Below, in pieces: positions 2,983-63,982 of a DNA stretch of 64,000 nucleotides (position 1 is the first letter of the stretch; every line of letters starts with the position of its first letter). The translations under genes and the position numbers were made by a program. The notes under the pieces were generated by a model. It was not told where the DNA came from. It was given only the letters and a program-made list of their open reading frames with translations, and searched no databases. The DNA lies in the NCBI GenBank assembly GCA_000091205.1, contig AP006490.2; one strand, 5' to 3'. The DNA is from Cyanidioschyzon merolae (Eukaryota).

Positions 2983-3309
2983 TTGTACGCAGTTTTGCTG
3001 CGTCGTTCCGTGCAGGCCTCTGACGCACCTGTTTGCGTAGCAGCGGTCAAACGTGGAACGTCAGCAGACGAAAACTGCCCTGACGCATCGATTATACGCA
3101 GTTTTGCTGCGTCGTTCCGTGCAGGCCTCTGACGCACCTGTTTGCATAGCAGCGGTCAAACGTGGAACGTCAGCAGACGAAAACTGCCCTGACGCATCCA
3201 TTGTACGCAGTTTTGCTGCGTCGTTCCGTGCAGGCCTCTGACGCACCTGTTTGCATAGCAGCGGTCAAACGTGGAACGTCAGCAAACGAAAACTGCCCAG
3301 TATCAAGCC
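2983..3309. repeat. Tandem repeat, 109-bp unit x3 (copies start 2983, 3092, 3201)
   Basis: Direct inspection shows the unit ttgtacgcagttttgctgcgtcgttccgtgcaggcctctgacgcacctgtttgc(g/a)tagcagcggtcaaacgtggaacgtcagcagacgaaaactgccctgacgcatc repeated with only a few substitutions. The six-frame ORFs repeat the peptide RSFAASFRAGL. Confidence 0.9.
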
Positions 3310-29157: not shown

Positions 29158-32100
29158 TCAGCCGGGCTCAGATACGTTCGAGCGAAAGAATGCCCCCTTC
29201 GAGATCCAGGCTTTGACGCGTGCCCGCCGTCGCTCCCGGCACCGTCGGAGCAAATGACCCAACGCCTGCCCGTGTGCTATGCGGCTCGCTATACAGGCGA
29301 TATCCTCAAATGCAACGCATGCAGCGCAGGCGTCTGCATCGTTCTCTGGACTGGCGTGCCAAGTGGTGTAGGGCGTCGCGTCGACGACATGCGCATCCAG
29401 TGCGCTCTCGTAGCATCGATACTGGCAATGTTCAAAGTGAATGAGCGGATACACCGGGCTAATGCGTGCATCGGTGCCATTCGATGACCGCGAATCTAGT
29501 GCCAGACAACGAGGTGGATGCACTGCGTCCTCGTAGCGCAGCCTGATGACAAGGAGCGGTCCGTCCGGGTCGTCGGCAGCGTATGCGTACCGCTGCGCCT
29601 GGCGTATATCGCCGCCGCGCAGCGCACCCACGTACAGCAGGCGCAAGCCAGGTGCTGCGTCAAACGTATCGAACGGGGTTAGCGTTTCCAGCCCCGATAC
29701 CCGGATGCGTTGCCGAGGCCAGTGGACATATACGCGACGCGTGAACACACGAGCACCCAACTTGCCGTCAGTCTCGAGTGGAACGATATTCACACCGAAT
29801 TTGGCGGAGCCTAGTAGCCGCCACACCCCGGGCTGTGCAGATACCGGCACGACACAACAGAGACGCACGAGCGAGCCCTCGTATTTGGTTCGCAGGAGCT
29901 GTGCTAGGTCCAGTGGACAATCCCAAACCTCTACCTTGGCTAAATGTTTGCCCAGCGGGTCCGCCACGCCAAGCGTTAACAAGGAGCCTATTTTTGGCGG
30001 GAATTTGTCTACGTGTCCTGATGCGTGCACCGCATCCGTGCACGCATCGCTTTCGAGATGCTCAGGGTGCCCGCACGCAGACCAGGCGCCAGGCGTACGA
30101 GGCGCCGCATCTGGGCTCCACGAAAATATGGGTACAGGGCAGGCATGGAGTTGCCCGTGTTCAGCATCTGCGACGATCTGTGCGGTGTAGGTTGCGCTCA
30201 GAAGGTATCTTGGCTTTCCGGGGAGAGTTCCCGGCTGACGGGGTGAAACATAGGCCCCATTTTTGTCCAACTGTCGTTGTTGTTGGTGGTGGTGTAGCGT
30301 TTCCGCGACGAACCTTAGTGGATGGACTCGGTGCAGGACGACGTCCAGGGCGGGAACGGTGCCGCCCAAGGGATCGGTCTGTGGCAGGGTCACCGCCATC
30401 AATGCGGATTGCACACGACCTATTGCCTGATGAACGGAATCGCCGATACGTTTCATCGACCAGCGCTGCTTCTGGAACAGTGGCGCTGGATGGACGCTGT
30501 TCAGGGACAGGGTTAAAGAGATTCGCTCGATCTGTGCAGCCGCTGTACGGATGGAGCGCCTGCTGGCATGGTGCGGTGCCGCAGCGCTGCACTCTACCCG
30601 AGCCGCACCGATGTAAAGACAACCTGCCCTGGTCCATAGGCGATGAGGTGCAGAAACCGATCTGTAGCCAATCTGCGGTCGATATTGTAACGCTCGCTCC
30701 GTTGCTGCGAATACGCGCAGGTGATGCAGCCACGCTTCAACGGGCTGGGTACCTTTCGCAAAAACCAAGTAATGCCCGTCGCAAAGCAATAAGCATACAT
30801 GCTCAGTCTCGATGCTCGTTTCGCAATCGTAGCCTGGAACGAGGAGGAGTCTCATCGGGGGCAGATAACTAAAAGCGTCTGGAGCTCGAGCAATCGCTTC
30901 AAACATGGAACTAGAGCGTTGCTGTTCCATGCGACGATGGCAACGCCAGAAGCGCCCGATGAGTTGATACAGCACTTGCCATACGGTTAAGACGCGACCG
31001 AATAGTGCTTGCGGCACAGCGAGCTCTATGAGACTCATCTCGTAAATAATCAAGCACCAGTAACGACGAAACCAAGCAAGGGAACCTACTCGATTGACAA
31101 CCTGGGAGGCATTAACAGTCGGCTCGAAATCTTGCTGAGACACCAGCCAAAAGGTGTCCGTTGGATCCGGCTTTGGGTTTTCTTGAACGGTATCGTCAAC
31201 GCAGAAGAAACAGAAGAAATCCCACGCATCTAGGACTGCACCTTGGGCACGCAGTTTTGTAACAAGGCGCTCAGTGGCAGTGTCGTCGCGCCCAGTCGCA
31301 TGCAGCGACTCGAGTTTCGTGATCAGGGCATCCGCATCGTTGCGAGAGCACTTGAACCGGAAACGTATGCTTTCCCAGGGCGCAAACGCCGCACGAATCG
31401 CATGCACGGAAGGATGTTCCAGGTCGATATCACATGGAGGGCGCGGAAAACACTTTGGAACCAAAGCTGGCGACCAGTATCCCGTGCGGCGTGCCGCATC
31501 GCCGCGGAAGGCAGCATGTGCACCAGCCTTTGGGTCATGTTCAGGGCAGACAGGCAGTGACTGGATCTCTGGTGCATCCCCTGCTCCATGAGCATCGGTA
31601 CTTGTCTTGCTTCGATGGATGCTTGTCATTGGTGCCTCAGCCTTTGACGGTGGCGTGAAGCGTCGGGCCCGCGAACTGAGCGGTCTTGCAGGCGCTTCTA
31701 CCGAAGTCACGTCTGCAAACGGTGGTCGAGCGTGACAAACGGATATTCCATTGTCTTGATCGTTGATGTTTCCCGCCCGTTTCGAATTGTCCATGGAGCA
31801 CGGCGGCCTTTTTCGTGGAAGATTACTATTTGAAGCGGGCCAGATGCATCGCTTGCTGGGAGCTGCGTATGCATTGACGCACGAGCTCGGGCCCATATGC
31901 GCTACTTGTGGCTCATTCATTCCACAATCAATAGACATAGATGAAGCGTCTTGGTTGCGGAACTCGCATGGAAAAGCTCGCGAATTTGCAAACTCTTGCC
32001 GTATGTGACAATCCTCTATGGATTTGATCTCCGAAAACGGCGATGCATCACAAGCGACTGGTGGACGATTCTCTGCCTCCTCGCTAAAGAGTCGCGCGAC

Positions 32101-33144
32101 TCGGGCGAGAGAAGCGCTCGATGCGACTTGCAGCTGCTGACCGTGACCCGTTGAGAAACCAGTTGCAGCGGCTGTAGCTCGATGTGATGCAGCTCGGGCA
32201 TCCTTGTCTGCGCCACCTGGAGCGGGATCTTCATGAAAGAGTCGCGCGACTCGGGCGAGAGAAGCGCTCGATGCGACTTGCAGCTGCTGACCGTGACCCG
32301 TTGAGAAACCAGTTGCAGCGGCTGTAGCTCGATGTGATGCAGCTCGGGCATCCTTGTCTGCGCCACCTGGAGCGGGATCTTCATGAAAGAGTCGCGCGAC
32401 TCGGGCGAGAGAAGCGCTCGATGCGACTCGCAGCTGCTGACCGTGACCCGTTGAGAAACCAGTCCTCATTGCAGACTTTGCTTTGTCAAAGTTCATTGCC
32501 TCTGCCCGTGTCCCCATGTGCTGTAAATCACCGACACGTTCGACTCCGGTTGCTTCTGTTGATCGGGTAAACACGCGCAACAGTTTCTCATTAGCAGGGC
32601 ACGTACCCGTCGCTTTGTCATCGATGCGAGCGCGCCCTGGAGACGCGTTCGGTGCGTGAACTAGCGATAATGCTGCACAACCAGCACCATATCGTTCCTT
32701 ATCTCCTAAGGGTGTGTCAAAAATAGCACTAGTTTCTAGGAACCTGGTCGGTTTTCTACCAAACGCGACATCCGCTGTACTGCCTTCATTATCGGATACT
32801 TGCGACTTGAAGTCACAGTGGTTGGGTTCCACGTTCCAGCTGTGTATTCCTTCGTGTCGGAGATCAGCGTCGCTCCGACCGAGTTCCTGCGTTATGCTCG
32901 TCGGTGTGCAGGTATCTACGCGGTCGACGATAAGCGACTGGGGCGGGTTTTCCATAGGCGCCGACCCAGCCCCCGTTTGCGCCGCTGCGTGCGGGAAACG
33001 GCTATGTTCTCCCAAGGCGACAAGATAGCAAGCCAACAAACCACTATTCAGGGCACTTTCGCTCTTCTTGAGACGTTCCGCTCGAGTCTCACACCGCAGT
33101 CGAAGCAGACAACCGACGTTCTGCTGGCCTTCAGCGCGACACAC
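29158..33144 (-). CDS. BRCA2-like protein with three near-identical BRC repeats, 1328 aa
   Basis: TGFSTGHGQQLQVASSASLARVARLFHE occurs three times, with a degenerate fourth. It matches the BRC consensus F-x-T-A-S-G-K-x-i-x-v-S-x-x-s-L-x-k-a-x-x-l-F. About 1000 further residues could hold a DNA-binding domain. I could not verify the OB folds by eye. Confidence 0.55.
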   Translation of the reverse strand: MCRAEGQQNVGCLLRLRCETRAERLKKSESALNSGLLACYLVALGEHSRFPHAAAQTGAGSAPMENPPQSLIVDRVDTCTPTSITQELGRSDADLRHEGIHSWNVEPNHCDFKSQVSDNEGSTADVAFGRKPTRFLETSAIFDTPLGDKERYGAGCAALSLVHAPNASPGRARIDDKATGTCPANEKLLRVFTRSTEATGVERVGDLQHMGTRAEAMNFDKAKSAMRTGFSTGHGQQLRVASSASLARVARLFHEDPAPGGADKDARAASHRATAAATGFSTGHGQQLQVASSASLARVARLFHEDPAPGGADKDARAASHRATAAATGFSTGHGQQLQVASSASLARVARLFSEEAENRPPVACDASPFSEIKSIEDCHIRQEFANSRAFPCEFRNQDASSMSIDCGMNEPQVAHMGPSSCVNAYAAPSKRCIWPASNSNLPRKRPPCSMDNSKRAGNINDQDNGISVCHARPPFADVTSVEAPARPLSSRARRFTPPSKAEAPMTSIHRSKTSTDAHGAGDAPEIQSLPVCPEHDPKAGAHAAFRGDAARRTGYWSPALVPKCFPRPPCDIDLEHPSVHAIRAAFAPWESIRFRFKCSRNDADALITKLESLHATGRDDTATERLVTKLRAQGAVLDAWDFFCFFCVDDTVQENPKPDPTDTFWLVSQQDFEPTVNASQVVNRVGSLAWFRRYWCLIIYEMSLIELAVPQALFGRVLTVWQVLYQLIGRFWRCHRRMEQQRSSSMFEAIARAPDAFSYLPPMRLLLVPGYDCETSIETEHVCLLLCDGHYLVFAKGTQPVEAWLHHLRVFAATERALQYRPQIGYRSVSAPHRLWTRAGCLYIGAARVECSAAAPHHASRRSIRTAAAQIERISLTLSLNSVHPAPLFQKQRWSMKRIGDSVHQAIGRVQSALMAVTLPQTDPLGGTVPALDVVLHRVHPLRFVAETLHHHQQQRQLDKNGAYVSPRQPGTLPGKPRYLLSATYTAQIVADAEHGQLHACPVPIFSWSPDAAPRTPGAWSACGHPEHLESDACTDAVHASGHVDKFPPKIGSLLTLGVADPLGKHLAKVEVWDCPLDLAQLLRTKYEGSLVRLCCVVPVSAQPGVWRLLGSAKFGVNIVPLETDGKLGARVFTRRVYVHWPRQRIRVSGLETLTPFDTFDAAPGLRLLYVGALRGGDIRQAQRYAYAADDPDGPLLVIRLRYEDAVHPPRCLALDSRSSNGTDARISPVYPLIHFEHCQYRCYESALDAHVVDATPYTTWHASPENDADACAACVAFEDIACIASRIAHGQALGHLLRRCRERRRARVKAWISKGAFFRSNVSEPG
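32087..32462. repeat. Tandem repeat, 150-bp unit x2.5, coding the BRC repeats (near-identical at DNA level)
   Basis: Units start at about 32101, 32251 and 32401 and are almost identical (tcgggcgagagaagcgctcgatgcgacttgcagctgctgaccgtgacccgttgagaaacc...). The period of 150 is a multiple of 3 and in frame with the BRCA2-like ORF. Confidence 0.9.
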
Positions 33145-51648: not shown

Positions 51649-53052
51649 TTGCCCCTCGACGTCCAGGAAGCGTCTCGTGTGAGCAGAGCCTCAGCGGAGC
51701 GCGGCGTCAGCGGCCCGCAACTAGAAACGCCTGCCCCAGTCAAGCGTCGACGCAGCGTTTTTTCCTTGAAGCGCTGCTTTGCGGTGTTCGTTTCACGAAA
51801 CGTTCCGACAGCAATGTTCGGCATAGTTCGGGTCGCTTTCTCAATTCACACGAGCGCCAGCTTCAAGGCCGGTAGCAGTGCTTTCAAGTCGCACAACTGC
51901 ACCGACGTTCGTTTCCAGCACAAGCCGCTGCCTCGGGCAGCGGTTGCTCGGCGTCGGCTATGGCGTTCGCCTCTGGTACTGTGCGATCAGAGGCGTAAAG
52001 ACGCTTCGTCGAAGGCGGAGACTTTCGGAAGCGCAAATTCAAATGAAAGCACAACGAACGCTGACGCAACCGTGAACCTCGAACGAGGTCAGAGTGCAGA
52101 GGCAGCAAACCCGGGGGTGCCAACGTCCGGCGGACCGCGGCGACGTTCCCCGTTTGAGGACTTGGTCGACGGAGCTTCCGATGGTTTCGGGGGACCCACA
52201 TCCCCAGGGCTTCCTCGACGACGCTCCAACCTATCCGAGCAGAACGAGAGGATTCGAGCACTCCTGGGCCTCGAGAAACGTGACACCTCGGAGCGTACCC
52301 AGCAGCGGCCAGCGGCGCCCGTTCCCGAGCGCCCAGCAACCACGGTGACGAGCACGGAGAACGCACCAGGCCTGATCGACCTAACAGGGGACGGTGGTGT
52401 GCTCCGCGAGTTGCTCTCCCGAGGGGCACCAGAGAAAGCGGCGAACAAACAGACGCCGGTGCAAAGTACGTCGGGCAGTCGCCTTCGGGTGCACTATGTT
52501 GGCAAACTAGCGGAGACTGGCCAGATATTCGATGCATCTCGCGAGCGACAGGAACCTTTTGAGTTTATCCTGGGTGAAGGGAGTGTGATTAAGGGTTGGG
52601 AGGCCGGTCTGGTTGGTCTAGCGGCCGGCGATGTCGTGCGTCTGGTATGTGCTCCCGCTTATGCCTATGGACTGCGCGGAGTGCCGCCGGTGATCCCGCC
52701 TCGCGCGAAACTTGAGTTCGAGGTTGAGGTGCTGGAGGTGTTACCGGCCGCACCGGGCAACAGCGAAGCCCAGAGCAAATCATCTTTGCGTGCTCTCGAC
52801 GAAGATGACGTTCCACGTACCCCAGAAGATATTTCTCGCGCCTATATCAAACGTCTCGAGGAGCGCGCCGCGAATCCAAAGAAGGAATCGAAATGGTTTA
52901 TCATCTCGCCTTTTGCGAGTGCGACTGGAGAGCGACCGCCGTGGTGGTTGAATCCTAACATCACTTTCCTGATCATATTTTCCGTGCTCGGTCTGGCGAC
53001 GTATGCCGTATATGTGTCGGGTGGCATTCGTCAGGGGTTTCCGCCCTCGTAG
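51649..53052 (+). CDS. FKBP-type peptidyl-prolyl cis-trans isomerase with a C-terminal transmembrane anchor. The true start may be an internal Met.
   Basis: FKBP domain: RVHYVGKLAETGQIFDASRERQEPFEFILGEGSVIKGWEAGLVGLAAGDVVRLVCAPAYAYGLRGVPPVIPPRAKLEFEVEVLEV. Hydrophobic C-terminal segment ITFLIIFSVLGLATYAVYV. Confidence 0.8.
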   Translation: MPLDVQEASRVSRASAERGVSGPQLETPAPVKRRRSVFSLKRCFAVFVSRNVPTAMFGIVRVAFSIHTSASFKAGSSAFKSHNCTDVRFQHKPLPRAAVARRRLWRSPLVLCDQRRKDASSKAETFGSANSNESTTNADATVNLERGQSAEAANPGVPTSGGPRRRSPFEDLVDGASDGFGGPTSPGLPRRRSNLSEQNERIRALLGLEKRDTSERTQQRPAAPVPERPATTVTSTENAPGLIDLTGDGGVLRELLSRGAPEKAANKQTPVQSTSGSRLRVHYVGKLAETGQIFDASRERQEPFEFILGEGSVIKGWEAGLVGLAAGDVVRLVCAPAYAYGLRGVPPVIPPRAKLEFEVEVLEVLPAAPGNSEAQSKSSLRALDEDDVPRTPEDISRAYIKRLEERAANPKKESKWFIISPFASATGERPPWWLNPNITFLIIFSVLGLATYAVYVSGGIRQGFPPS

Positions 53053-54083: not shown

Positions 54084-55349
54084 TCAGATATTCTCACATT
54101 CCGGATGCGTTCCCTCGATGGCGATCCCGTTCATTTTGCAGCGCTCTCGAATAATCATTTCTGCGAGAATCATATCTTCCGGGGTCGTGATTTTGATATT
54201 CGCGTATTCGCCCATAGTAATTTTCACAGGATAATGCTTGTCGTCGAGCAACTCCACGACGCTCACGTCGTCTGTTACGCGTAGGCCCCGGCGCATGGCG
54301 TTCTCGAAGCCCTGACGCAGAAGACGAGCCCGAACCACTTGTGGTGTTTGGATCTCCCACAACCTGCTGCGATCGATAGTCCGCCTGACAAACTGTCCAT
54401 CCTCGCTCTCCTTAATCGTCGCTTTCACTGGCACGCCAATTGCTGCGGCCCCGTAGATCGAGGCGTCCCGCAGGCACGACCGTATGCAGGAGCGTGAAAC
54501 AAGTGGTCGCGCCGCGTCGTGAACACACACGAGGATGTCGTCTGTTTCATCTTTTTCACGATCCACCGTATCTGGGACGAGGGCGAGTCCAGAGCGAACT
54601 GAGTCTTGCCGCTCTAAGCCCGGGTCCGCGAATAAAATCCGCTTGTCGCGCAAAACATAGTTTCCAAAATACGCTTCACGATATCGTTTTTCAACGACGA
54701 TAATTATCTGAGTCACCTCGGGCAAGCCCAGAAAGAGCAACAGAGAACGTTCGGATACAGTCTTGCCACAGAGCTGCAGAAACTGCTTTGGCCGGTCGGC
54801 ACGCATGCGGCTGCCCAGGCCCCCCGCCAGCAGAATCACCGACACCGGCTGCCGAACCGGCGGCGGCACCAATCCGTTTCCCAAGTCATCCATCGGCCCG
54901 AACGCCGGCAGTATAGACTCTCCATTTTCTAGAAGAGTCATAAACTGCAGACGCTCGCTTGTAAAGTTCCGACGCCGAACAGATCCAACCTGGGTGCACC
55001 AGCCTTGCCGTGGTGGCCGTGAGCGCCGCTCTGCGAACGCGCCACTGCTCACTGCGGACGTTGCCACTGAGGCGCGACAACTGCAACGCCCGGGAGCTCT
55101 AACTGGTGCCTGCAGACCGTGTACTACGAAGTTCAACGGTGTCATCAACGTAACTTGTGAAATGTGGAGCTTTTCGTCGGTCAAGTCCCCGAGGGAACCC
55201 GCGGGACCTCTACCTAACAGCCGGAGCGTGCGTGGCGCATTAATGTGTGCGCTCCGCCGGTCGGAGCGCGCGCGCACGCGTACACCATCCAGGAGGCTGC
55301 GATTGGTGCAGGTGCTGGTGCAACGCATTCTGTAGGCGCGGATGCACAT
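54084..55349 (-). CDS. ispD: 2-C-methyl-D-erythritol 4-phosphate cytidylyltransferase (IspD, MEP pathway) with a roughly 130-aa N-terminal extension (candidate plastid transit peptide). The annotated first ATG lies inside the 120-bp satellite.
   Basis: VSVILLAGGLGSRMRADRPKQFLQL..., ILVCVHDAARPLVS, LWEIQTPQVVR, HYPVKITMGEYANIKITTPEDM. These are the IspD family blocks. The first 27 or so codons of the ORF merely translate the tandem-repeat unit (MCIRAYRMRCTSTCTNRSLLDGVRVRA), so the real start is probably downstream, for example the Met at MRCTSTC or later. Confidence 0.85.
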   Translation of the reverse strand: MCIRAYRMRCTSTCTNRSLLDGVRVRARSDRRSAHINAPRTLRLLGRGPAGSLGDLTDEKLHISQVTLMTPLNFVVHGLQAPVRAPGRCSCRASVATSAVSSGAFAERRSRPPRQGWCTQVGSVRRRNFTSERLQFMTLLENGESILPAFGPMDDLGNGLVPPPVRQPVSVILLAGGLGSRMRADRPKQFLQLCGKTVSERSLLLFLGLPEVTQIIIVVEKRYREAYFGNYVLRDKRILFADPGLERQDSVRSGLALVPDTVDREKDETDDILVCVHDAARPLVSRSCIRSCLRDASIYGAAAIGVPVKATIKESEDGQFVRRTIDRSRLWEIQTPQVVRARLLRQGFENAMRRGLRVTDDVSVVELLDDKHYPVKITMGEYANIKITTPEDMILAEMIIRERCKMNGIAIEGTHPECENI

Positions 55350-56345
55350 GTCCTTTATGTATAGGAAGGATCAGTTTGGGTGCATGGGTGCGCGCACGCG
55401 TACACCATCCAGGAGGCTGCGATTGGTGCAGGTGCTGGTGCAACGCATTCTGCAGGCGCGGATGCACATGTCCTTTATGTATAGGAAGGATCAGTTTGGG
55501 TGCATGGGTGCGCGCACGCGTACACCATCCAGGAGGCTGCGATTGGTGCAGGTGCTGGTGCAACGCTTTCTGTAGGCGCGGATGCACATGTCCTTTATGT
55601 ATAGGAAGGATCCGTTTGGGTGCATGGGTGCGCGCACGCGTACACCATCCAGGAGGCTGCGATTGGTGCAGGTGCTGGTGCAACGCATTCTGTAGGCGCG
55701 GATGCACATGTCCTTTATGTATAGGAAGGATCAGTTTGGGTGCATGGGTGCGCGCACGCGTACACCATCCAGGAGGCTGCGATTGGTGCAGGTGCTGGTG
55801 CAACGCATTCTGCAGGCGCGGATGCACATGTCCTTTATGTATAGGAAGGATCAGTTTGGGTGCATGGGTGCGCTCACGCGTACACCATCCAGGAGGCTGC
55901 GATTGGTGCAGGTGCTGGTGCAACGCATTCTGCAGGCGCGGATGCACATGTCCTTTATGTATAGGAAGGATCAGTTTGGGTGCATGGGTGCGCGCACGCG
56001 TACACCATCCAGGAGGCTGCGATTGGTGCAGGTGCTGGTGCAACGCATTCTGCAGGCGCGGATGCACATGTCCTTTATGTATAGGAAGGATCCGTTTGGG
56101 TGCATGGGTGCGCGCACGCGTACACCATCCAGGAGGCTGCGATTGGTGCAGGTGCTGGTGCAACGCATTCTGTAGGCGCGGATGCACATGTCCTTTATGT
56201 ATAGGAAGGATCAGTTTGGGTGCATGGGTGCGCGCACGCGTACACCATCCAGGAGGCTGCGATTGGTGCAGGTGCTGGTGCAACGCATTCTGCAGGCGCG
56301 GATGCACATGTCCTTTATGTATAGGAAGGATCAGTTTGGGTGCAT
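55262..56345. repeat. Satellite-like tandem array, 120-bp unit x about 9
   Basis: Unit tgcatgggtgcgcgcacgcgtacaccatccaggaggctgcgattggtgcaggtgctggtgcaacgcattctg(c/t)aggcgcggatgcacatgtcctttatgtataggaaggatc(a/c)gtttggg repeats with a 120-bp period (for example 55381 to 55501). Copies differ by single substitutions. Because 120 is a multiple of 3, artefactual ORFs of 390 and 456 aa read through on both strands. Confidence 0.95.
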
Positions 56346-57512
56346 GCGTTTCCCAGCTTGCGGCGAACGCCGGAGTCGCGCTGCTCCTGCACCTACATAC
56401 TCCAAGCAACATGCGTCTATATCACACGACGTGTACCGCCGCGGACGCGCAAATGAGAGGCAGCACTACCAGCCTGTGGGCATTGCCGTCACCGCTATAC
56501 AGCATAGATTCGATTCATGGAAACAGGTTCACGCGGATACGTGAAACGCAGCGGCGATTTGTCGTGATTCTGCGCTCGACTGTATGCATCCCAGGAGTTT
56601 TACTTGCGCAAGCCTAGCATCCTCTTTCGGAATAGAGGTCTGGTTAATCCAAAGACCCAGCAGCTGCGAACCTCTATTGCGCACGCCTTGCTTTACCATG
56701 ACGTGTATCGACTCGATGAGCTCAACAGTGCCGCTCCCGACACAGCTGGGTAGCACAGACAGCGGCAAATGACATAACGCTGGGCGAGCACGGATCCTAC
56801 GGAGGTTTCCGTATCAACACGGCATTGCAGCATTCGTGTTTATAAATCCTGGGAACATCCTGCCTGCTTCTGCAGTTTCCACATTACCGAATTCCCCCAT
56901 AACATGATTCTTCTACAAATCCTGGGGACTAGCGAGGGAGAGCGTCCACCTCTATCACCGTAATCGATCGCCAAGGAGCCTCGAGGCGCGCACAGTGACG
57001 CGCCAACATTGCCTAGGGCAGCGCTTGGTACGGGCGGCAGACACGGGGCGACTGCACCACTTTGCAGAGAAAACCAGAACATTCTCGCTTACACGCCGAC
57101 AGAGAAGGCTGCCGCACCACGGCACTTGTCTGGAATATCTCGTTCAGTGCACATCGCTTCGAATGCATCGCATGTGCAAAGGAAAGCCTCCAGACAAAAC
57201 ACTCTTGAATACAAGCCTCTCTGTTCGAAGCTGCCCGCTCGGCGTATGCTGACGCTCCGGTCTATCACGATGCACCAGAGATGCTTGATCGCTACGAACC
57301 TTTCCGACGCTTGCCATGCATACAATTCCGACTGGTAGCGTTTGCAGCTAGTCTATGGGATCGAAGAGTCCCAGCAGTAATCTAGCTGATCTGTAACGCT
57401 CGTAAACGCTCATGGGGCGATACGGAACTGGTTCAATAGGTCGCACCGGCTACGCAGTGCGTCTTGGTGGCGCAGCCAGTTTCCGCACAAGGTCCAGAAA
57501 AGCTCTGAGCGT

Positions 57513-59882
57513 TTGCCGTGCACCGCTCCCCAGTGGTGTTGCGTCCAAAACATCAGCGGGCATTTGTTAAGCACCATGAGATTGATTTGGAAAGGCTGGC
57601 CAATCGAGCTGTCGGAGCGACTTGCTGCCCAGGCTGACTGGGAGCGACGACGCTGGCGAACTGCTATCGTGGCGCTCGAATCAACCGTGGTTACCCACGG
57701 CTTGCCATACCCGCAGAACTTAGAGCTCGTCGACCAGATCCAGACGAATATTCGTCAAAAGGGTGCACAGCCGGCACTCCTGGCCATCATTGACGGGGTC
57801 ATTACCGTAGATCCCGACTCAGCGGTCAGTCAGCGTTTAGCTGAACAGGGAGCTCGGGTCTTTCGCAAGTGCAACCTACGCGACCTGAGTCTGGCGGTTG
57901 CCGAGCGTTGGAACGGTTCTCTAACAGTCTCGGCAGTGATGGAAGTCGCACACGGCCTTGGTTTCCGGGTGTTTGTGACCGGCGGCATCGGTGGCGTCCA
58001 CCGTGACTTTACACAGAACCACGACGCCTCCGCAGACCTGACTGCACTTGCTCGAATCCCGGTATGCGTTGTCTGCGCGGGCGTGAAAAGCGTTCTTGAC
58101 ATTGGAGCTACCCTAGAACGCCTTGAGACAGATGCAGTGCCCGCCATAGTCTTCAACTCGTCGGAGTTTCCTGCGTTCTGGTGCCGACGCTCCGGGTATG
58201 CAGCACCAGCGCGCCTCGATACCGTGGAACAGGTCGCGACAGTGCTTCGGTTGCACCTGCTACCGCTGCTCTCATCGGCTAGAGTAGACCATGATGGCGA
58301 GTGCACCAACGCAGAAAGACTACCGTGCGGTATGCTGGTAGCTGTGCCGATCCCTGCTGAGGCGGAATGCTCGGAATCCGAGACCGCTATTCAGCAAGCG
58401 CTGGCGGAGGCGACCCAGAGAGGCATTCGCGGCAAAGCGTTGACACCGTTCCTGCTCGAGCGGGTCGCAGCGCTCACCCAAGGAGCCTCAGTGCGTGCGA
58501 ACATGGCCCTGCTGCTTCATAATGCGTCCTTTGGGGCGGCGCTCGCCTCTGTCATGCACCACAGCTGTCACGGGTTGCCGCTGGGCAGTGCCCTTCGACG
58601 ATACCAGCACCAGCAGCACCAGCACCATCAGTTATCGTATGCATCGATCACGGGATCGCGACACACAATCGACGAAGCGCTCAATGGGTGCCCGTCCGAT
58701 GATCCCGAGCAGCGCCTCCTTGCCAGGAACGGCCCCGTACACGACGACAGCTCCGCATCCTTGGAGCCGGCACTGGATGCGGACGCAGCGCAACCTGAGC
58801 TAGCGCAGCACCCGAAGCAGCGCCTGACTGCGGATTGTGGGGCAAGTGCACCGCTCCGCTGGCTCCCGGTGACGGTGCTGGGTCACTGGACACTCGATAT
58901 TTACGCTTTCGCCAGCAGCAATGTGCCATTTTCCTCAAATCTTACTGCGGTACCTGCATCTTATCCTGGTGTGATCCGCAGCGCCTACGGTGGTGTCGGT
59001 TACAATATCGCCTTGACTCTGAGCTACCTCGCAGGCGGCGGCGCCAGCCCGTACTTCACGGCCTCTGAGGTGATGAGGGATGCACACTTGGGACGACTTG
59101 CCGAGTCATCACTCACTATGGCGAACGAACGACGCCTAGGCACGTTCTGGTCGACACGGCACCCTGCGGCAACGTACGTGGCCGTCCACAACGAAGCACG
59201 CGACCTGCTCTTCGCCGTCTTTGACGGAGCCGATATCACGCCCGCGATGCTTGGTCACGTGAACTCGTCTCGCCCGATTGTTTGGGATGCCAACCTGACC
59301 CCGGCAGCAATGGCTGCACTACCACGAGCAAGCAGTTTCTGGTATGAGCCCACGTCACCGGCCAAGGCAGGACGTATTGTCGCTGCGCAGCGGCTCGAGG
59401 CGCTGCCGTGGATGTCGCCCAACGAACTTGAACTCATAGCGATTGCACAGGCTGCTGGATTCTCGTTCCAGGAAGGTGCCATCGCGGATGACGGCTCGAT
59501 ATCCGATGCGCTGATTACCGCAGCAGCCGCGTACCTGGTGAACACACGGGGCGTTCGGAATATCCTGGTCACCCAGGGTGCCCGCGGCGTCACCTGGTTC
59601 TATCCGGATGCTGGTGCACTAGGTGGCATCGCATCCCGCCATTTCGATGCGATTCGTGTAGAAAAGTCTAATGTTCGTTCAACAACAGGTGCTGGCGATG
59701 TCTTCGCTGCGGCGGTCATCTTTGCGTTGTGCGGTTGGGGGCCGGCGCCGCCTCTGGCTCCCGCCCAGGCGATTTCTTTTGGACTCGAGGCGGCAGCGAT
59801 CGCTTGTCAGTATGAGACTGCAGTGCCGCCTGCAGACGCCCTAAGGCCTATTGTACAGCGAATGAGGCGCCACCGGCTCTGA
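57513..59882 (+). CDS. Bifunctional pseudouridine-5'-phosphate glycosidase (PsuG/IndA-like) fused to pseudouridine kinase (PsuK, PfkB family), 789 aa
   Basis: N-terminal half: VALESTVVTHGLPYPQNLE, KCNLRDLS, VFVTGGIGGVHRDF, SADLTALARIPVCVVCAGVKSVLDIGATLERLETDAVP, which is the PsuG signature. C-terminal half: GVGYNIALTLSYLAGGG...TTGAGDVFAAAVIFALCGWG, the PfkB kinase signatures. Comparable fusions are annotated in some eukaryotes, for example fission yeast. Confidence 0.85.
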   Translation: MPCTAPQWCCVQNISGHLLSTMRLIWKGWPIELSERLAAQADWERRRWRTAIVALESTVVTHGLPYPQNLELVDQIQTNIRQKGAQPALLAIIDGVITVDPDSAVSQRLAEQGARVFRKCNLRDLSLAVAERWNGSLTVSAVMEVAHGLGFRVFVTGGIGGVHRDFTQNHDASADLTALARIPVCVVCAGVKSVLDIGATLERLETDAVPAIVFNSSEFPAFWCRRSGYAAPARLDTVEQVATVLRLHLLPLLSSARVDHDGECTNAERLPCGMLVAVPIPAEAECSESETAIQQALAEATQRGIRGKALTPFLLERVAALTQGASVRANMALLLHNASFGAALASVMHHSCHGLPLGSALRRYQHQQHQHHQLSYASITGSRHTIDEALNGCPSDDPEQRLLARNGPVHDDSSASLEPALDADAAQPELAQHPKQRLTADCGASAPLRWLPVTVLGHWTLDIYAFASSNVPFSSNLTAVPASYPGVIRSAYGGVGYNIALTLSYLAGGGASPYFTASEVMRDAHLGRLAESSLTMANERRLGTFWSTRHPAATYVAVHNEARDLLFAVFDGADITPAMLGHVNSSRPIVWDANLTPAAMAALPRASSFWYEPTSPAKAGRIVAAQRLEALPWMSPNELELIAIAQAAGFSFQEGAIADDGSISDALITAAAAYLVNTRGVRNILVTQGARGVTWFYPDAGALGGIASRHFDAIRVEKSNVRSTTGAGDVFAAAVIFALCGWGPAPPLAPAQAISFGLEAAAIACQYETAVPPADALRPIVQRMRRHRL

Positions 59883-60427: not shown

Positions 60428-63400
60428 CTATTCACCGAGGTCGGTCAGCACCATCCGCGGAGCAATAGCCATGGACATGAGCTCCTGGAACAGTAGTTTG
60501 CAGGCATACGGAATCTCGACGGCGGCAATTCGCGTCTTGTTCTTACATCCCCGGCATTCAAAAATAGAGCGTCGGAGATCAGCGATAGCAATGAGGCCGC
60601 ACCTTTCGCACACATGCACGCGATACTTATCGCTCACGTCGCACATGCGCTCTTTGAGTACTGCTGAGGCGCCGTACGCCACAAATACATCTTTCTCCAT
60701 CTCACCGATTCGTAGGCCACCGCCTCGACTTTTGCCCTCAACGGGCTGACGCGTAAGCACCTGCACGGCACCGCGAGCACGGGCTCCCAATTTTTGGTAG
60801 ACCACATGACGGAGACGTTGGTAGTAGTTCACGCCCATAAAGATGGCCGCATTCATCGGGCGACCCGTTTGACCGTTGAAGAGCAGCTCCCAGCCGCGCG
60901 GATCGTAGCCATGGCGAACAAGCTCCCGTCCAATGGCGTCGACGGTGACTGGTGTGAACGCAGTTGCGTCGCCCTCGACCCCGCTGAGCGCACACACTTT
61001 GCCCAGGAGCGCCTCAATCAAATGTGCAATCGTCATTCGACTGGGTACAGCGTGCGGGTTCATGATAATGTCCGGCCGGATACCGTCCACGTTGAACGGA
61101 AGATCCTCCTCGGGCATGCAGAGGCCCATGGTGCCCTTCTGACCGTGTCGGGATGCAAACTTGTCCCCGACTTGCGGGATGAGCTCCGTTCGAACGCGCA
61201 CTTTCACCATTCGCGTTCCCGCCTCTCCCGTACAGATGAGCACCTTGTCGGTAACACCTCGCTCGGTGCGCTTCATGACCAGAGAGCAGTCTTTGCGCGT
61301 TCGCATACCACTTAGGGCGGCCATACCTGAGGCCGTTTCCTGTTCAGCCGCGTCGACTGCGGCACGGGATGCTCCCAGTGGTGCGGTTTTACCCACGAGC
61401 ACATCACCACCGCGAACACGTTCGCCCACACCGATCAAGCCGTCGGATTCGAGTTTTGAGTAGGCGTGTGCTTCTTTCATGCCCAGGGTGACCGCCGGAT
61501 CCGGTTTGCTGATCGTTTCCTGCTGCCCGAAGAGTTTCTTCTGTTCCTCCTCTTTGAAGGTCTTGTAATAGACAGAGCGAAAGAGACCGCGATCCACTGC
61601 AGCTTGGCTCATGATGAGTGAATCCTCCTGATTGTAACCAGAGTAGCACGCAATAGCCACCACAGCGTTGATACCGGCGGGAAGCGTGCGAAACTGCAAA
61701 TGTTCCATAACGCGCGTCGTTACCAGTGGTTTCTGGGGATAATACAGCACATGCGCCATGGTGTCCATACGCAAATTATAATTCGTCAAGTACATACCCA
61801 TCGCTTGCTTGCCCATGGCCGATTGATAGGTGTTACGCGGTGACTGGTTGTGATCCGGGAAAGGAATAATCGACGCACAGACACCGAAAATCATGGAAGG
61901 ATGGATCTCCATATGCGTATAGGTCGCGTGGTCGCCACTCGTCGCCAAATGCTCTTGGTCCATGGCAATCATTACGGTCTCTTCCTCGTTCACGTCGAGA
62001 TATTCGACCAGACCTTCACGAACAAGTCGCGAAAAGGTATAACCGGTGGTTTCATAGTCTCGAAGCAGGTCGATATGTTGCTTGCGGATCCGCAACAAGT
62101 TCGTTTCCGTATCCACGATGAATAGTGGCCGGCAGACGCGTCCAGCGTCTGTTCCAATACGCAGCTCACCGTGGCTGACATCAAACACAATGCTGACCTC
62201 GTCAGCGATCTCACCGGATCGACGTAGCACCCGCAGCGCGGTGACGAGCTCTTCGGGTCGTGGATGAATGCCCACCCAGGAGCCGTTCAGAAAAACTTTT
62301 GTTTGGCGCTTAATTCGTTCGGCGGTTACTTCGTACAGGGGCTCCATCTCGAAGTTGTACAGCATCTCGAGGATATCTGCCACGGGAGTGCCGACGCTGA
62401 TGTACGCCATGAGCGCGAGGTTTTTCACGAGGCCACAAGACTGACCCTCGGGGGTCTCAGCTGGGCAAATCATGCCCCACTGGGTGTTGTGGAGTTGGCG
62501 AGGTTTCGCGAGTTTGCCCTCTCGTCCAATGGGCGAGTTCAAGCGTCGCAGGTGCGATAACGAGGCCGCATATGTTAGGCGATTCAGAACCTGTGATACA
62601 CCTGTTCGAACCGCTGCTTTGCGGTCTGCACGCCAGTTACCCGTTGCGATTGCGTATTTGAGGTTGTCAGTTATTGTGCGACCTTTCACAGCTAACGCAA
62701 TATTCAACTCCTTGCCCATGTCAAGTTGATGCTGCAGAATCGAACGCGCATCCTTGACGACTTTTTGGAACAGCTGACGAAAGAGCCCCGTGAGCAATGG
62801 ACCCGCTAGATCCAGCCGCTTCAGGCCGTAATGGTCGCGATCATCTTCTTCGCGGCGCCCGAGAACAGTAGCCAACAACTGGTGGGTCATGTACCCCAAA
62901 AACCAGGCCTTGGCAGGTTCGTACGCACCGATACCGATGTGCGGCAGGAACTCGAGCTGCAGAACCTCACGGGCATAGCGAATGCGTCGGTCGCGAGTGG
63001 CACCAACAGAATTGCCTCGCTTGCCAATAAAATCCAGAGCCAAGTTTTGATCAGTAATCACTGAGCCCATATCCAGAGATGGCATCAAAAGCGTCTGCAT
63101 TTCCTCATCATCGGTGTCGTAAATGACACGTTCCATTATCTCCCGATCAGACTCGAGGCCCAGGGCGCGGAAGACGACCGCCAGTGGAATATCGGCACGG
63201 ATATACGGCAAGCTGACCATAATGCATTGACCGCTCTGACCTTTGACGCCACCGCGGGTGATTTTGACCTGAGTTGTTCGCGCAGGCTTATTGCCGCGAT
63301 CGAGAACAGATCGACACTCTGCCACATGTGAGTACGGGGCCGTTGATGCTCGCTTGAAAACGTAGACCGCATTGTTGCCCATACGCTCCTGGGCAATCAG

Positions 63401-63982
63401 CGCTTTCTCCGAGCCATTGATGATGAAATAGCCTCCCTGATCGTAAGGGCATTCGCCGATGTTCTGCAGTTGGTACTCTGTGAGGCCATTCAGATGGCAA
63501 AAATCCGAGTGCAACATCATCGGAACCCGACCGAGGTAGAGATTGCGAGCTGGATGTCGAAACTCGCGCTCCTCCTTGGTAGCGGGATCTATTTCGATGT
63601 CGATGCGCGTGACCTCCACGTAAAGCGGCGACGAGTACGACAGGTTGCGCAACCGCGCCTCGTGTGGGAAAAGCACCGTAGGCGTGCCGTCAACCTCCGT
63701 GAAAGTTGGCTTTCCAGCGCTCAACTGACCAAAGGAAATAATGGTCCTCGTCCCCTCGGGAGGCGCTCTTTTGCCTGGCACGTGCTGCGGCTGGGGACGA
63801 AGAACAATATCCGGCGTCTCGTCTACGATTGTTTGACACGCGTTCCCTATGAACTCGTTGAACGAGTCCAGTTGCTGCTTTACGAGACCCTTCTCTCGAA
63901 AGTGAGCAGATATAACGTCCCAGATGTCATCGGCCGAGAGCTGATCTTCTGCGGAAACGGATGCTCGCTGCGGCTTTGCCAT
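60428..63982 (-). CDS. RPB2: DNA-directed RNA polymerase II second-largest subunit (RPB2), 1184 aa, intronless
   Basis: N-terminus MAKPQRASVSAEDQLSADDIWDVISAHFREKGLVKQQLDSFNEF. Internal blocks GYFIINGSEKALIAQER and GQKGT.G. C-terminal Zn ribbon and tail ERCGLIAIADLRRSIFECRGCKNKTRIAAVEIPYACKLLFQELMSMAIAPR. The window ends 18 nt upstream of the ATG. Confidence 0.95.
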   Translation of the reverse strand: MAKPQRASVSAEDQLSADDIWDVISAHFREKGLVKQQLDSFNEFIGNACQTIVDETPDIVLRPQPQHVPGKRAPPEGTRTIISFGQLSAGKPTFTEVDGTPTVLFPHEARLRNLSYSSPLYVEVTRIDIEIDPATKEEREFRHPARNLYLGRVPMMLHSDFCHLNGLTEYQLQNIGECPYDQGGYFIINGSEKALIAQERMGNNAVYVFKRASTAPYSHVAECRSVLDRGNKPARTTQVKITRGGVKGQSGQCIMVSLPYIRADIPLAVVFRALGLESDREIMERVIYDTDDEEMQTLLMPSLDMGSVITDQNLALDFIGKRGNSVGATRDRRIRYAREVLQLEFLPHIGIGAYEPAKAWFLGYMTHQLLATVLGRREEDDRDHYGLKRLDLAGPLLTGLFRQLFQKVVKDARSILQHQLDMGKELNIALAVKGRTITDNLKYAIATGNWRADRKAAVRTGVSQVLNRLTYAASLSHLRRLNSPIGREGKLAKPRQLHNTQWGMICPAETPEGQSCGLVKNLALMAYISVGTPVADILEMLYNFEMEPLYEVTAERIKRQTKVFLNGSWVGIHPRPEELVTALRVLRRSGEIADEVSIVFDVSHGELRIGTDAGRVCRPLFIVDTETNLLRIRKQHIDLLRDYETTGYTFSRLVREGLVEYLDVNEEETVMIAMDQEHLATSGDHATYTHMEIHPSMIFGVCASIIPFPDHNQSPRNTYQSAMGKQAMGMYLTNYNLRMDTMAHVLYYPQKPLVTTRVMEHLQFRTLPAGINAVVAIACYSGYNQEDSLIMSQAAVDRGLFRSVYYKTFKEEEQKKLFGQQETISKPDPAVTLGMKEAHAYSKLESDGLIGVGERVRGGDVLVGKTAPLGASRAAVDAAEQETASGMAALSGMRTRKDCSLVMKRTERGVTDKVLICTGEAGTRMVKVRVRTELIPQVGDKFASRHGQKGTMGLCMPEEDLPFNVDGIRPDIIMNPHAVPSRMTIAHLIEALLGKVCALSGVEGDATAFTPVTVDAIGRELVRHGYDPRGWELLFNGQTGRPMNAAIFMGVNYYQRLRHVVYQKLGARARGAVQVLTRQPVEGKSRGGGLRIGEMEKDVFVAYGASAVLKERMCDVSDKYRVHVCERCGLIAIADLRRSIFECRGCKNKTRIAAVEIPYACKLLFQELMSMAIAPRMVLTDLGE

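What the first reader, a model, noticed from the sequence alone, without database searches (positions are those of the whole stretch)
55262..56345. 120-bp x9 satellite filling the divergent spacer between IspD and the PsuG-PsuK gene, and overlapping the IspD 5' end
A highly homogeneous 1.1-kb tandem array sits between two divergently oriented genes, where their promoters should be. The annotated first ATG of the IspD ORF lies inside the array. The unit length is a multiple of 3, which produces long artefactual ORFs on both strands and could confuse gene callers. Such an array may act as a regulatory, nucleosome-positioning or boundary element. Alternatively, it may be a recent expansion that has displaced the IspD N-terminal targeting sequence.
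Basis: seen in the sequence. Interest (0 to 1): 0.5.

Follow-up and report, generated by a model that had tools for sequence, protein, structure and literature searches.

The report
Variable 120-bp minisatellite upstream of IspD

Summary
The array is real: nine head-to-tail 120-bp units at 55270-56349, about 99% identical. The window is Cyanidioschyzon merolae 10D chromosome 8.

The array lies between the divergent genes IspD (-) and PsuG-PsuK (+). It fills only 1,080 of the 2,430-bp spacer. It sits 124 bp from the IspD start codon and 1,226 bp from the PsuG-PsuK start.

Only the longest IspD ORF reaches into the array. The GenBank protein starts at Met69 (55145), outside it. The Cyanidiococcus orthologue starts at the same place and has the same N-terminal Phe motif.

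Conspecific metagenome contigs (99.3-99.7% identical) span the site with 1, 2 or 3 units, or break inside the array. So this is a copy-number-variable minisatellite that has expanded in 10D.

The unit was found at no other locus. It is absent from the syntenic 626-bp spacer of Cyanidiococcus. It matches no RNA family and shows no credible coding signal. Unit junctions coincide with the longest alternating purine-pyrimidine tracts in the window, which may have seeded the duplication.

Most likely it is a near-neutral VNTR. A copy-number effect on IspD expression is untested. Low interest; mainly useful as an annotation warning and a strain-typing marker.

The parts
55270..56349 (.). Tandem array of nine 120-bp units. 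Unit starts: 55270, 55390, 55510, 55630, 55750, 55870, 55990, 56110, 56230. GC is 57.5%.
   Evidence: TRF. In-register listing with 10 variant sites. 33-mer found 9 times versus 0 expected.
55266..55285 (.). Left boundary of the array: a 20-nt perfectly alternating purine-pyrimidine tract, GCGCGCGCGCACGCGTACAC. An 18-nt version, GTGCGCGCACGCGTACAC, contains the 10-nt palindrome GTGCGCGCAC. It recurs at seven of the eight unit junctions and is broken only by the G-to-T variant in unit 6.
   Evidence: these are the longest such runs in the 64-kb window. Only 6 runs of 14 nt or more (maximum 16 nt) lie outside the array. Palindromes.
54084..55145 (-). IspD coding sequence as deposited (BAM79792.1, 353 aa; 2-C-methyl-D-erythritol 4-phosphate cytidylyltransferase). 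Start codon at 55145.
   Evidence: Exact match to BAM79792.1/XP_005536078.1. Pfam IspD, 1.4e-50. Orthologue alignment begins at this Met.
55146..55349 (-). Upstream in-frame extension of the IspD ORF (68 codons), which reaches 80 bp into unit 1. It is most likely the 5' leader or promoter, not coding sequence.
   Evidence: Not in the deposited protein. No counterpart in the Cyanidiococcus orthologue. Two wild contigs replace everything upstream of 55203/55204 with unrelated DNA.
56350..57575 (.). Unique, non-repetitive part of the spacer between the array and the PsuG-PsuK start codon.
   Evidence: Present and 99.3-99.8% identical in all spanning wild contigs. No Rfam match at E<=1.
57576..59882 (+). 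PsuG-PsuK fusion gene (BAM79793.1, 768 aa, deposited as 'similar to indigoidine synthesis protein IdgA').
   Evidence: Exact match. Pfam Indigoidine_A 6.7e-94 plus PfkB 6.9e-13.
55240..56412 (-). Artefactual 390-aa ORF through the array. Its Pfam 'hits' are sums of nine sub-threshold matches.
   Evidence: PSP scores 62 bits with 0 individually significant stretches. Not in the protein collection. No CDS is deposited between BAM79792 and BAM79793.
55247..56617 (+). Artefactual 456-aa ORF through the array on the opposite strand.
   Evidence: No Pfam family.

Best explanation
This is a locus-specific, non-coding, copy-number-variable minisatellite (VNTR). A 120-bp piece of the native IspD upstream region is single-copy in some wild C. 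merolae haplotypes. It has been amplified head-to-tail to nine copies in strain 10D.

The likely mechanism is replication slippage or unequal sister-chromatid (homologous) exchange. The array boundary and unit junctions fall in a 20/18-nt alternating purine-pyrimidine, partly palindromic tract. Such a tract is prone to non-B DNA and breakage, and it plausibly seeded the first duplication (inferred, not shown).

Expansion adds copies away from IspD. Unit 1 stays 124 bp from the IspD ATG, and the unique 1.2-kb spacer stays next to PsuG-PsuK. Both genes therefore keep their proximal control regions, and length changes are tolerated.

The array encodes no protein or RNA. The ORFs through it arise because the unit length is a multiple of three.

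Shown: the structure, locus specificity, copy-number variation, absence in the sister genus, and the position of the IspD start outside the array. Inferred: the mechanism of origin and near-neutrality.
For: - Structure: nine units about 99% identical.
- Copy-number variation: conspecific contigs (99.3-99.7% identity) span both flanks with 1 unit (L001, L002, L019), 2 units (L018) or 3 units (L003). Others end inside the array (L004/L012 with at least 3.5 units, L005, L011, L013, L014), as short-read assemblies do at multi-copy repeats.
- Shared variants: wild and 10D units share variants T58, T64, C104 and C118. L018 unit 1 equals 10D unit 3, and L018 unit 2 equals 10D unit 9. This is as expected from unequal exchange among old unit variants.
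- Locus specificity: a 26-mer scan of JGI metagenome contigs found only this locus. No other copy exists in the window.
- Sister genus: the syntenic spacer in Cyanidiococcus is 626 bp, with no tandem repeat and no unit homologue.
- No RNA gene: no Rfam or tRNA hit, and folding z-scores of -0.55 to -1.7.
- No constraint visible: units differ between haplotypes at about 1.7-4% of positions, versus 0.2-1.1% in neighbouring spacers. That gives no sign of purifying selection.
- Boundary tract: the junctions are the longest alternating Pu/Py runs in the window.
- IspD start lies outside the array.
Against: - No transcript, chromatin or expression data were available, so neutrality is inferred from variability alone.
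- Short-read metagenome assemblers can collapse repeats, so the low copy numbers are strictly lower bounds. The 2- and 3-unit contigs carry distinguishable units. The 1-unit contigs came from k=141 assemblies, where a multi-copy array would normally break the contig.
- The unit lies within 250 bp of the IspD ATG, where promoter elements are expected. A ninefold repeat of them could matter.
- The whole 10D genome could not be searched directly.
Confidence: 0.8

Rival explanations
1. Tunable promoter repeat. The unit carries IspD upstream regulatory sites, or nucleosome-excluding or Z-DNA-forming sequence. Copy number then sets IspD (MEP pathway) or PsuG-PsuK expression, as described for unstable promoter tandem repeats in yeast and humans.
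For: The array starts 124 bp upstream of the annotated IspD ATG. Each unit has one AT-rich TATA-like patch (CTATACATAAAGG in the IspD sense) and an 18-nt Z-DNA-prone tract. Copy number varies in nature. Polymorphic promoter repeats act as expression modifiers in humans (PMC4857002). The yeast case is from my own knowledge (Vinces et al. 2009).
Against: Units are more variable than flanking spacers. The element is absent from the sister genus. No known motif was tested. The TSS is unknown. No expression data exist for different alleles.
Confidence: 0.12
2. Coding sequence. The array either extends the IspD N-terminus (421-aa ORF from ATG 55349) or encodes a separate 40-aa-repeat protein (390 aa on the - strand or 456 aa on the + strand).
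For: Open frames exist on both strands, and the IspD ORF stays open up to 55349. Metagenome gene callers reported 421-437-aa IspD proteins.
Against: The deposited IspD starts at Met69, and no CDS is deposited between BAM79792 and BAM79793. The orthologue aligns only from residue 73. The array ORF is in a different frame from IspD. Natural variants T64 and A104/C104 create or remove stops in two frames. Copy number ranges from 1 to 9. Pfam hits are summed sub-threshold repeats.
Confidence: 0.02
3. Generic satellite with a chromosomal role, such as a centromeric, subtelomeric, boundary or insulator element.
For: Tandem, homogeneous and located between divergent genes.
Against: It is a single locus, only 1.08 kb long, and set in gene-dense DNA with no telomere repeat. 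One-copy alleles exist. It is absent from the syntenic site in Cyanidiococcus, which lies internally at 342-359 kb of a 536-kb contig. The annotated repeats of this genome are WSV-like elements, a few transposons, and telomeric and subtelomeric blocks (PMC1955436).
Confidence: 0.03
4. The count of nine units is an assembly error in the reference, although the repeat itself is real.
For: The 1.08-kb array is longer than a typical Sanger read. Every short-read assembly seen either breaks here or shows 3 or fewer units.
Against: The units carry distinguishing variants in a non-periodic order. The reference is described as finished to 100% (PMC1955436). No independent 10D assembly across the site was available.
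Confidence: 0.05

Closest known systems
Minisatellites / VNTR loci (classical hypervariable tandem repeats of eukaryotic genomes)
   Same: Head-to-tail units, a single locus, high unit homogeneity with interspersed unit variants, copy-number alleles among individuals or populations (1, 2, 3, at least 4, 9), non-coding, GC-rich.
   Different: The 120-bp unit is at or above the upper end of the usual 10-100-bp range. The organism is a haploid unicellular red alga with an extremely repeat-poor genome, so expansion is probably mitotic (unequal sister-chromatid exchange or slippage). No recombination data are available.
Unstable tandem repeats in promoters (yeast, Vinces et al. 2009, from my own knowledge; human promoter TR eQTLs, PMC4857002)
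   Same: A polymorphic tandem repeat within a few hundred bp upstream of a gene's start codon, in a divergent promoter region.
   Different: Those repeats are mostly short (1-50 bp) and AT-rich or nucleosome-disfavouring, with measured expression effects. Here the unit is 120 bp and 57.5% GC, and no expression effect has been measured.
Z-DNA / alternating purine-pyrimidine tracts as instability hot spots (Wang, Christensen and Vasquez 2006, from my own knowledge)
   Same: The array boundary and unit junctions coincide with 18-20-nt (CG/CA)-type alternating tracts, the longest in the window.
   Different: Only sequence propensity is shown. Z-DNA formation and breakage were not tested. Documented outcomes are mainly deletions and rearrangements, not tandem amplification.
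Satellite DNA
   Same: Tandem organisation and homogeneity.
   Different: One short array at one euchromatic locus, with no genome-wide distribution detected.

Membership tests
Minisatellite / VNTR | Head-to-tail tandem copies of a unit of tens of bp to about 100 bp | tested here: met
   Nine units of 120 bp in perfect register with no indels. The unit length is slightly above the conventional range.
Minisatellite / VNTR | Copy number differs between individuals or populations of the same species | tested here: met
   Contigs 99.3-99.7% identical to the window carry 1, 2, 3 or at least 3.5 units, against 9 in 10D. Caveat: these are short-read assemblies.
Minisatellite / VNTR | Locus-specific (one or few sites), not dispersed | tested here: met
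   The 26-mer scan of JGI metagenome contigs returned only this locus. No other copy was found in the 64-kb window or in L017. The full 10D genome was not searchable.
Minisatellite / VNTR | Non-coding | tested here: met
   No deposited CDS, no orthologue coverage, no genuine Pfam domain, no Rfam or tRNA hit.
Satellite DNA (centromeric, subtelomeric or generic) | Long arrays and/or many genomic sites of the same unit | tested here: not met
   A single 1.08-kb array. No other site was found.
Satellite DNA (centromeric, subtelomeric or generic) | Association with a centromere or chromosome end | tested here: inconclusive
   The window is gene-dense, and the tandem-repeat scan shows no telomere array. 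The syntenic Cyanidiococcus site is chromosome-internal. The position on the 739,753-bp chromosome 8 was not obtained (one search failed).
Functional promoter tandem repeat | Lies within the promoter or upstream of the TSS of the regulated gene | tested here: inconclusive
   The array starts 124 bp upstream of the annotated ATG. The TSS is unknown.
Functional promoter tandem repeat | Expression changes with repeat number | not testable with these tools
   No transcript data per allele.
Coding tandem repeat / N-terminal extension of IspD | The reading frame is conserved and covered by orthologues or a deposited protein | tested here: not met
   BAM79792.1 starts at Met69, outside the array. The Cyanidiococcus orthologue aligns from residue 73. 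Natural variants toggle stop codons.
Tandem RNA-gene array (5S rRNA, snoRNA, tRNA) | The unit matches an RNA family or folds significantly better than shuffles | tested here: not met
   0 Rfam matches at E<=1. 0 tRNAs. Fold z-scores -0.55 to -1.7.

The most novel reading that the evidence does not exclude
The array is a copy-number 'rheostat' for the plastid isoprenoid (MEP) pathway gene IspD. Each unit would contribute upstream activating sites and a Z-DNA-forming junction that absorbs the negative supercoiling generated between the two divergently transcribed genes. Natural 1-to-9-copy alleles would then give heritable, rapidly reversible differences in IspD or PsuG-PsuK expression in hot-spring populations.
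Probability: 0.08. Interest if true: 0.45.

Novelty: new member of a known kind. Interest (0 to 1): 0.15.

Why it matters
Mostly practical.
- It shows that the IspD start codon and transit peptide are intact. The 421-437-aa 'IspD' proteins and the repeat ORFs in public metagenome protein sets are gene-calling artefacts.
- It provides a simple length-polymorphic marker (1, 2, 3, at least 4, 9 units) for typing C. merolae strains and wild populations. The genome is famous for having almost no repeats.
- It marks a site where short-read assemblies of this species break.
- C. merolae allows precise homologous replacement, so the locus could serve as a small test case for promoter-repeat effects. 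Nothing here suggests new biology.

Tried and rejected
- RNA-gene array (a 120-nt unit is about the length of 5S rRNA): the Rfam E-value scan of 54900-57600, ARAGORN and single-strand folding were all negative.
- Coding repeat: the Pfam hits to the 390-aa ORF (PSP 62 bits and others) have 0 individually significant stretches. They are summed noise from nine identical weak matches.
- Dispersed satellite: the metagenome 26-mer scan and a sensitive BLASTN against the masked window found only this locus.
- Conservation in the sister genus: no unit homologue and no tandem repeat in the Cyanidiococcus syntenic spacer.
- Mobile-element origin: I saw no terminal inverted repeats or target-site duplication at the array edges on reading the flanks.
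- Chromosome coordinates: a look-up of the reference record through BAM79792.1 failed.
- Literature: searches on C. merolae tandem repeats, TSSs and H3K27me3 on repeats found no description of this array or of minisatellites in this genome.
- Higher-order periodicity among the nine units: the order of variants (T64 / none / T58+T64+C104 / T64 / none / T5 / C104 / T64 / C118) shows no clean supra-unit repeat.

Full report
**Source of the window.** The 1,184-aa ORF at 60428-63982 (-) is identical to RNA polymerase II subunit RPB2 of Cyanidioschyzon merolae 10D (BAM79794.1), on a record of 739,753 bp. That length is chromosome 8 in the finished genome (PMC1955436). The neighbouring proteins are also exact matches and have consecutive accessions:
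- FKBP-type isomerase, BAM79791.1
- IspD, BAM79792.1
- the Indigoidine_A+PfkB (PsuG-PsuK) fusion, BAM79793.1

No protein is therefore deposited between IspD and PsuG-PsuK.

**The observation.**
- TRF reports period 120, 9.0 copies, 98% matches, no indels, score 2098 at 55270-56346.
- In register there are exactly nine units at 55270-56349, with 10 variant positions in 1,080 bp.
- A 33-mer from the unit occurs nine times, against zero in 100 shuffles.
- This is by far the largest tandem repeat in the window. The others are a 109-bp x 2.9 intergenic repeat and a 150-bp x 2.5 repeat inside a long ORF.
Otherwise the coordinates, unit length, copy number and homogeneity are right.
- Long ORFs run through the array on both strands (456 aa +, 390 aa -), because 120 is a multiple of three.

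**Position relative to the genes.**
- The longest IspD ORF (54084-55349, 421 aa) has its first ATG 80 bp inside unit 1. The deposited protein is 353 aa and starts at Met69, position 55145, which is 124 bp outside the array.
- The orthologue in the sister genus Cyanidiococcus yangmingshanensis (355 aa, 77% identical) aligns from its residue 7 to residue 73 of the long ORF. Nothing aligns upstream.
- Both proteins begin with a bulky-residue/Phe motif: MTPLNFVVHG and MVWLQAGFVANG. Such a motif has been described for rhodophyte plastid transit peptides (PMC12531127).
- The IspD transit peptide is therefore intact, and the array lies upstream of the gene, not in it.
- The PsuG-PsuK ATG is at 57576. 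The spacer between the two start codons is 2,430 bp. The array takes 1,080 bp (44%), and 1,226 bp of unique DNA lies on the PsuG-PsuK side.

**Variation in nature.** Looking up RPB2 and IspD variants in public assemblies gave contigs 99.3-99.7% identical to the window, that is, conspecific wild populations.

| Contigs | Units | Note |
|---|---|---|
| L001, L002, L019 | 1 | span both flanks |
| L018 | 2 | spans both flanks |
| L003 | 3 | spans both flanks |
| L004/L012 | at least 3.5 | contig ends in the array |
| L005, L011, L013, L014 | partial | contig ends in the array |
| 10D (this window) | 9 | finished reference |

- Contigs that end inside the array behave as expected where near-identical units defeat short-read assembly.
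- The multi-unit contigs carry distinguishable units.
- The unit variants T58, T64, C104 and C118 are shared with 10D. L018 unit 1 is identical to 10D unit 3, and L018 unit 2 is identical to 10D unit 9.
- This is the pattern expected from unequal exchange among old unit variants. It shows that the 120-bp segment is native single-copy upstream DNA that has been amplified.
- Caveat: collapse by short-read assemblers cannot be wholly excluded, so the low counts are formally lower bounds.

**Is it a genome-wide satellite?**
- A scan of JGI metagenome contigs with an invariant 26-mer returned four contigs, all from this locus.
- Sensitive BLASTN found no other copy in the masked window.
- In Cyanidiococcus the gene order RPB2 / PsuG-PsuK / IspD / FKBP is conserved. 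The PsuG-PsuK/IspD spacer there is only 626 bp and has no tandem repeat and no similarity to the unit.
- The array is thus species-specific and locus-specific.

**Does it encode anything?**
- No Rfam family at E<=1, no tRNA, and folding energies within the range of shuffles (z -0.55 to -1.7).
- The Pfam 'hits' of the 390-aa ORF (for example PSP, 62 bits) have no individually significant stretch. They are sums of nine identical weak matches.
- Natural variants create or remove stop codons in two of the frames.

**Constraint.** Between haplotypes the unit differs at about 1.7-4% of positions, against 0.2-1.1% in the neighbouring non-coding spacers and 0.06-0.5% in coding DNA. The counts are small, but they give no sign of purifying selection on the unit.

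**Anatomy of the unit.**
- The left boundary is a 20-nt perfectly alternating purine-pyrimidine tract (55266-55285).
- Seven of the eight unit junctions carry the 18-nt version GTGCGCGCACGCGTACAC, which includes a 10-nt palindrome.
- These are the longest such runs in the 64 kb.
- I infer, without testing, that this non-B-DNA-prone tract favoured the initial duplication. Slippage or unequal homologous exchange then changed the copy number.
- Each unit also has one AT-rich TATA-like patch. Its relevance is unknown.

**Interpretation.**
- The best-supported reading is an ordinary, probably near-neutral minisatellite/VNTR upstream of IspD that has expanded in the 10D lineage (confidence about 0.8).
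- Copies are added distally, so both genes keep their proximal upstream DNA in all alleles. This would explain why length variation is tolerated.
- The main rival is that copy number tunes IspD or PsuG-PsuK expression, as promoter repeats do in yeast (own knowledge) and humans (PMC4857002). It cannot be excluded without TSS and expression data (about 0.12).
- Coding, satellite/boundary and RNA-array readings failed their tests.

**Unresolved.** Two short JGI contigs (L015, L016) match the window up to 55203/55204. That point is 58 bp upstream of the IspD ATG and 66 bp before the array. Beyond it they continue into two different unrelated sequences. I could not decide whether these are assembly chimeras at a common point or structural alleles that lack the unit.

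**Literature.** The C. merolae genome papers and later repeat or chromatin studies describe WSV-like interspersed elements, a few transposons, and telomeric and subtelomeric blocks. I found no description of this array or of minisatellites in them.

**Verdict.** The suggested encroachment on IspD and the satellite or boundary roles are not supported. Interest is low (0.15). The value lies in annotation hygiene and as a strain-typing marker.

Noticed in passing
window 55203-55204 (L015:1-143, L016:1-217): Two JGI metagenome contigs from different samples are 99.5% identical to the IspD side of the window. Both switch at the same base (just before CGCGGGTTCCC, 58 bp upstream of the IspD ATG) to unrelated DNA that differs between the two and matches nothing else fetched. 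They are either assembly chimeras at a common point or structural alleles lacking the 120-bp unit.
   Followed up: partly
window 2986-3298: A second tandem repeat, 109 bp x 2.9 copies and 98% identical, lies between ORFs and is unrelated in sequence to the 120-bp unit.
   Followed up: no
window 32086-32463: A 150-bp x 2.5-copy repeat (99% identical) lies inside the 1,328-aa ORF 29158-33144 (-). It is probably a recent in-frame 50-aa duplication in a protein-coding gene.
   Followed up: no
window 57576-59882 (+): BAM79793.1 is deposited as 'similar to indigoidine synthesis protein IdgA'. It is a fusion of an Indigoidine_A (pseudouridine-5'-phosphate glycosidase, PsuG) domain and a PfkB kinase domain, conserved as a 760-aa protein in Cyanidiococcus. 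The deposited name looks outdated.
   Followed up: partly
window 55240-56412 (-): The artefactual repeat ORF gets whole-protein Pfam scores above the curated cut-offs (PSP 62 bits against a 19.6 cut-off; DUF3378; LSDAT_euk; PC_rep) with zero individually significant stretches. This shows how a tandem repeat can generate false domain annotations.
   Followed up: yes
window 51649-53052 (+): The FKBP gene is deposited as 412 aa (start 51814). Many metagenome calls use upstream starts (457 or 467 aa), another start-codon discrepancy between the reference and the automatic calls.
   Followed up: no
window 56350-57575: After removal of the array, the C. merolae PsuG-PsuK/IspD spacer is still about 1.35 kb, against 626 bp in Cyanidiococcus. 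The extra unique DNA has no Rfam match. Some pipelines call a non-conserved 144-aa ORF there.
   Followed up: partly
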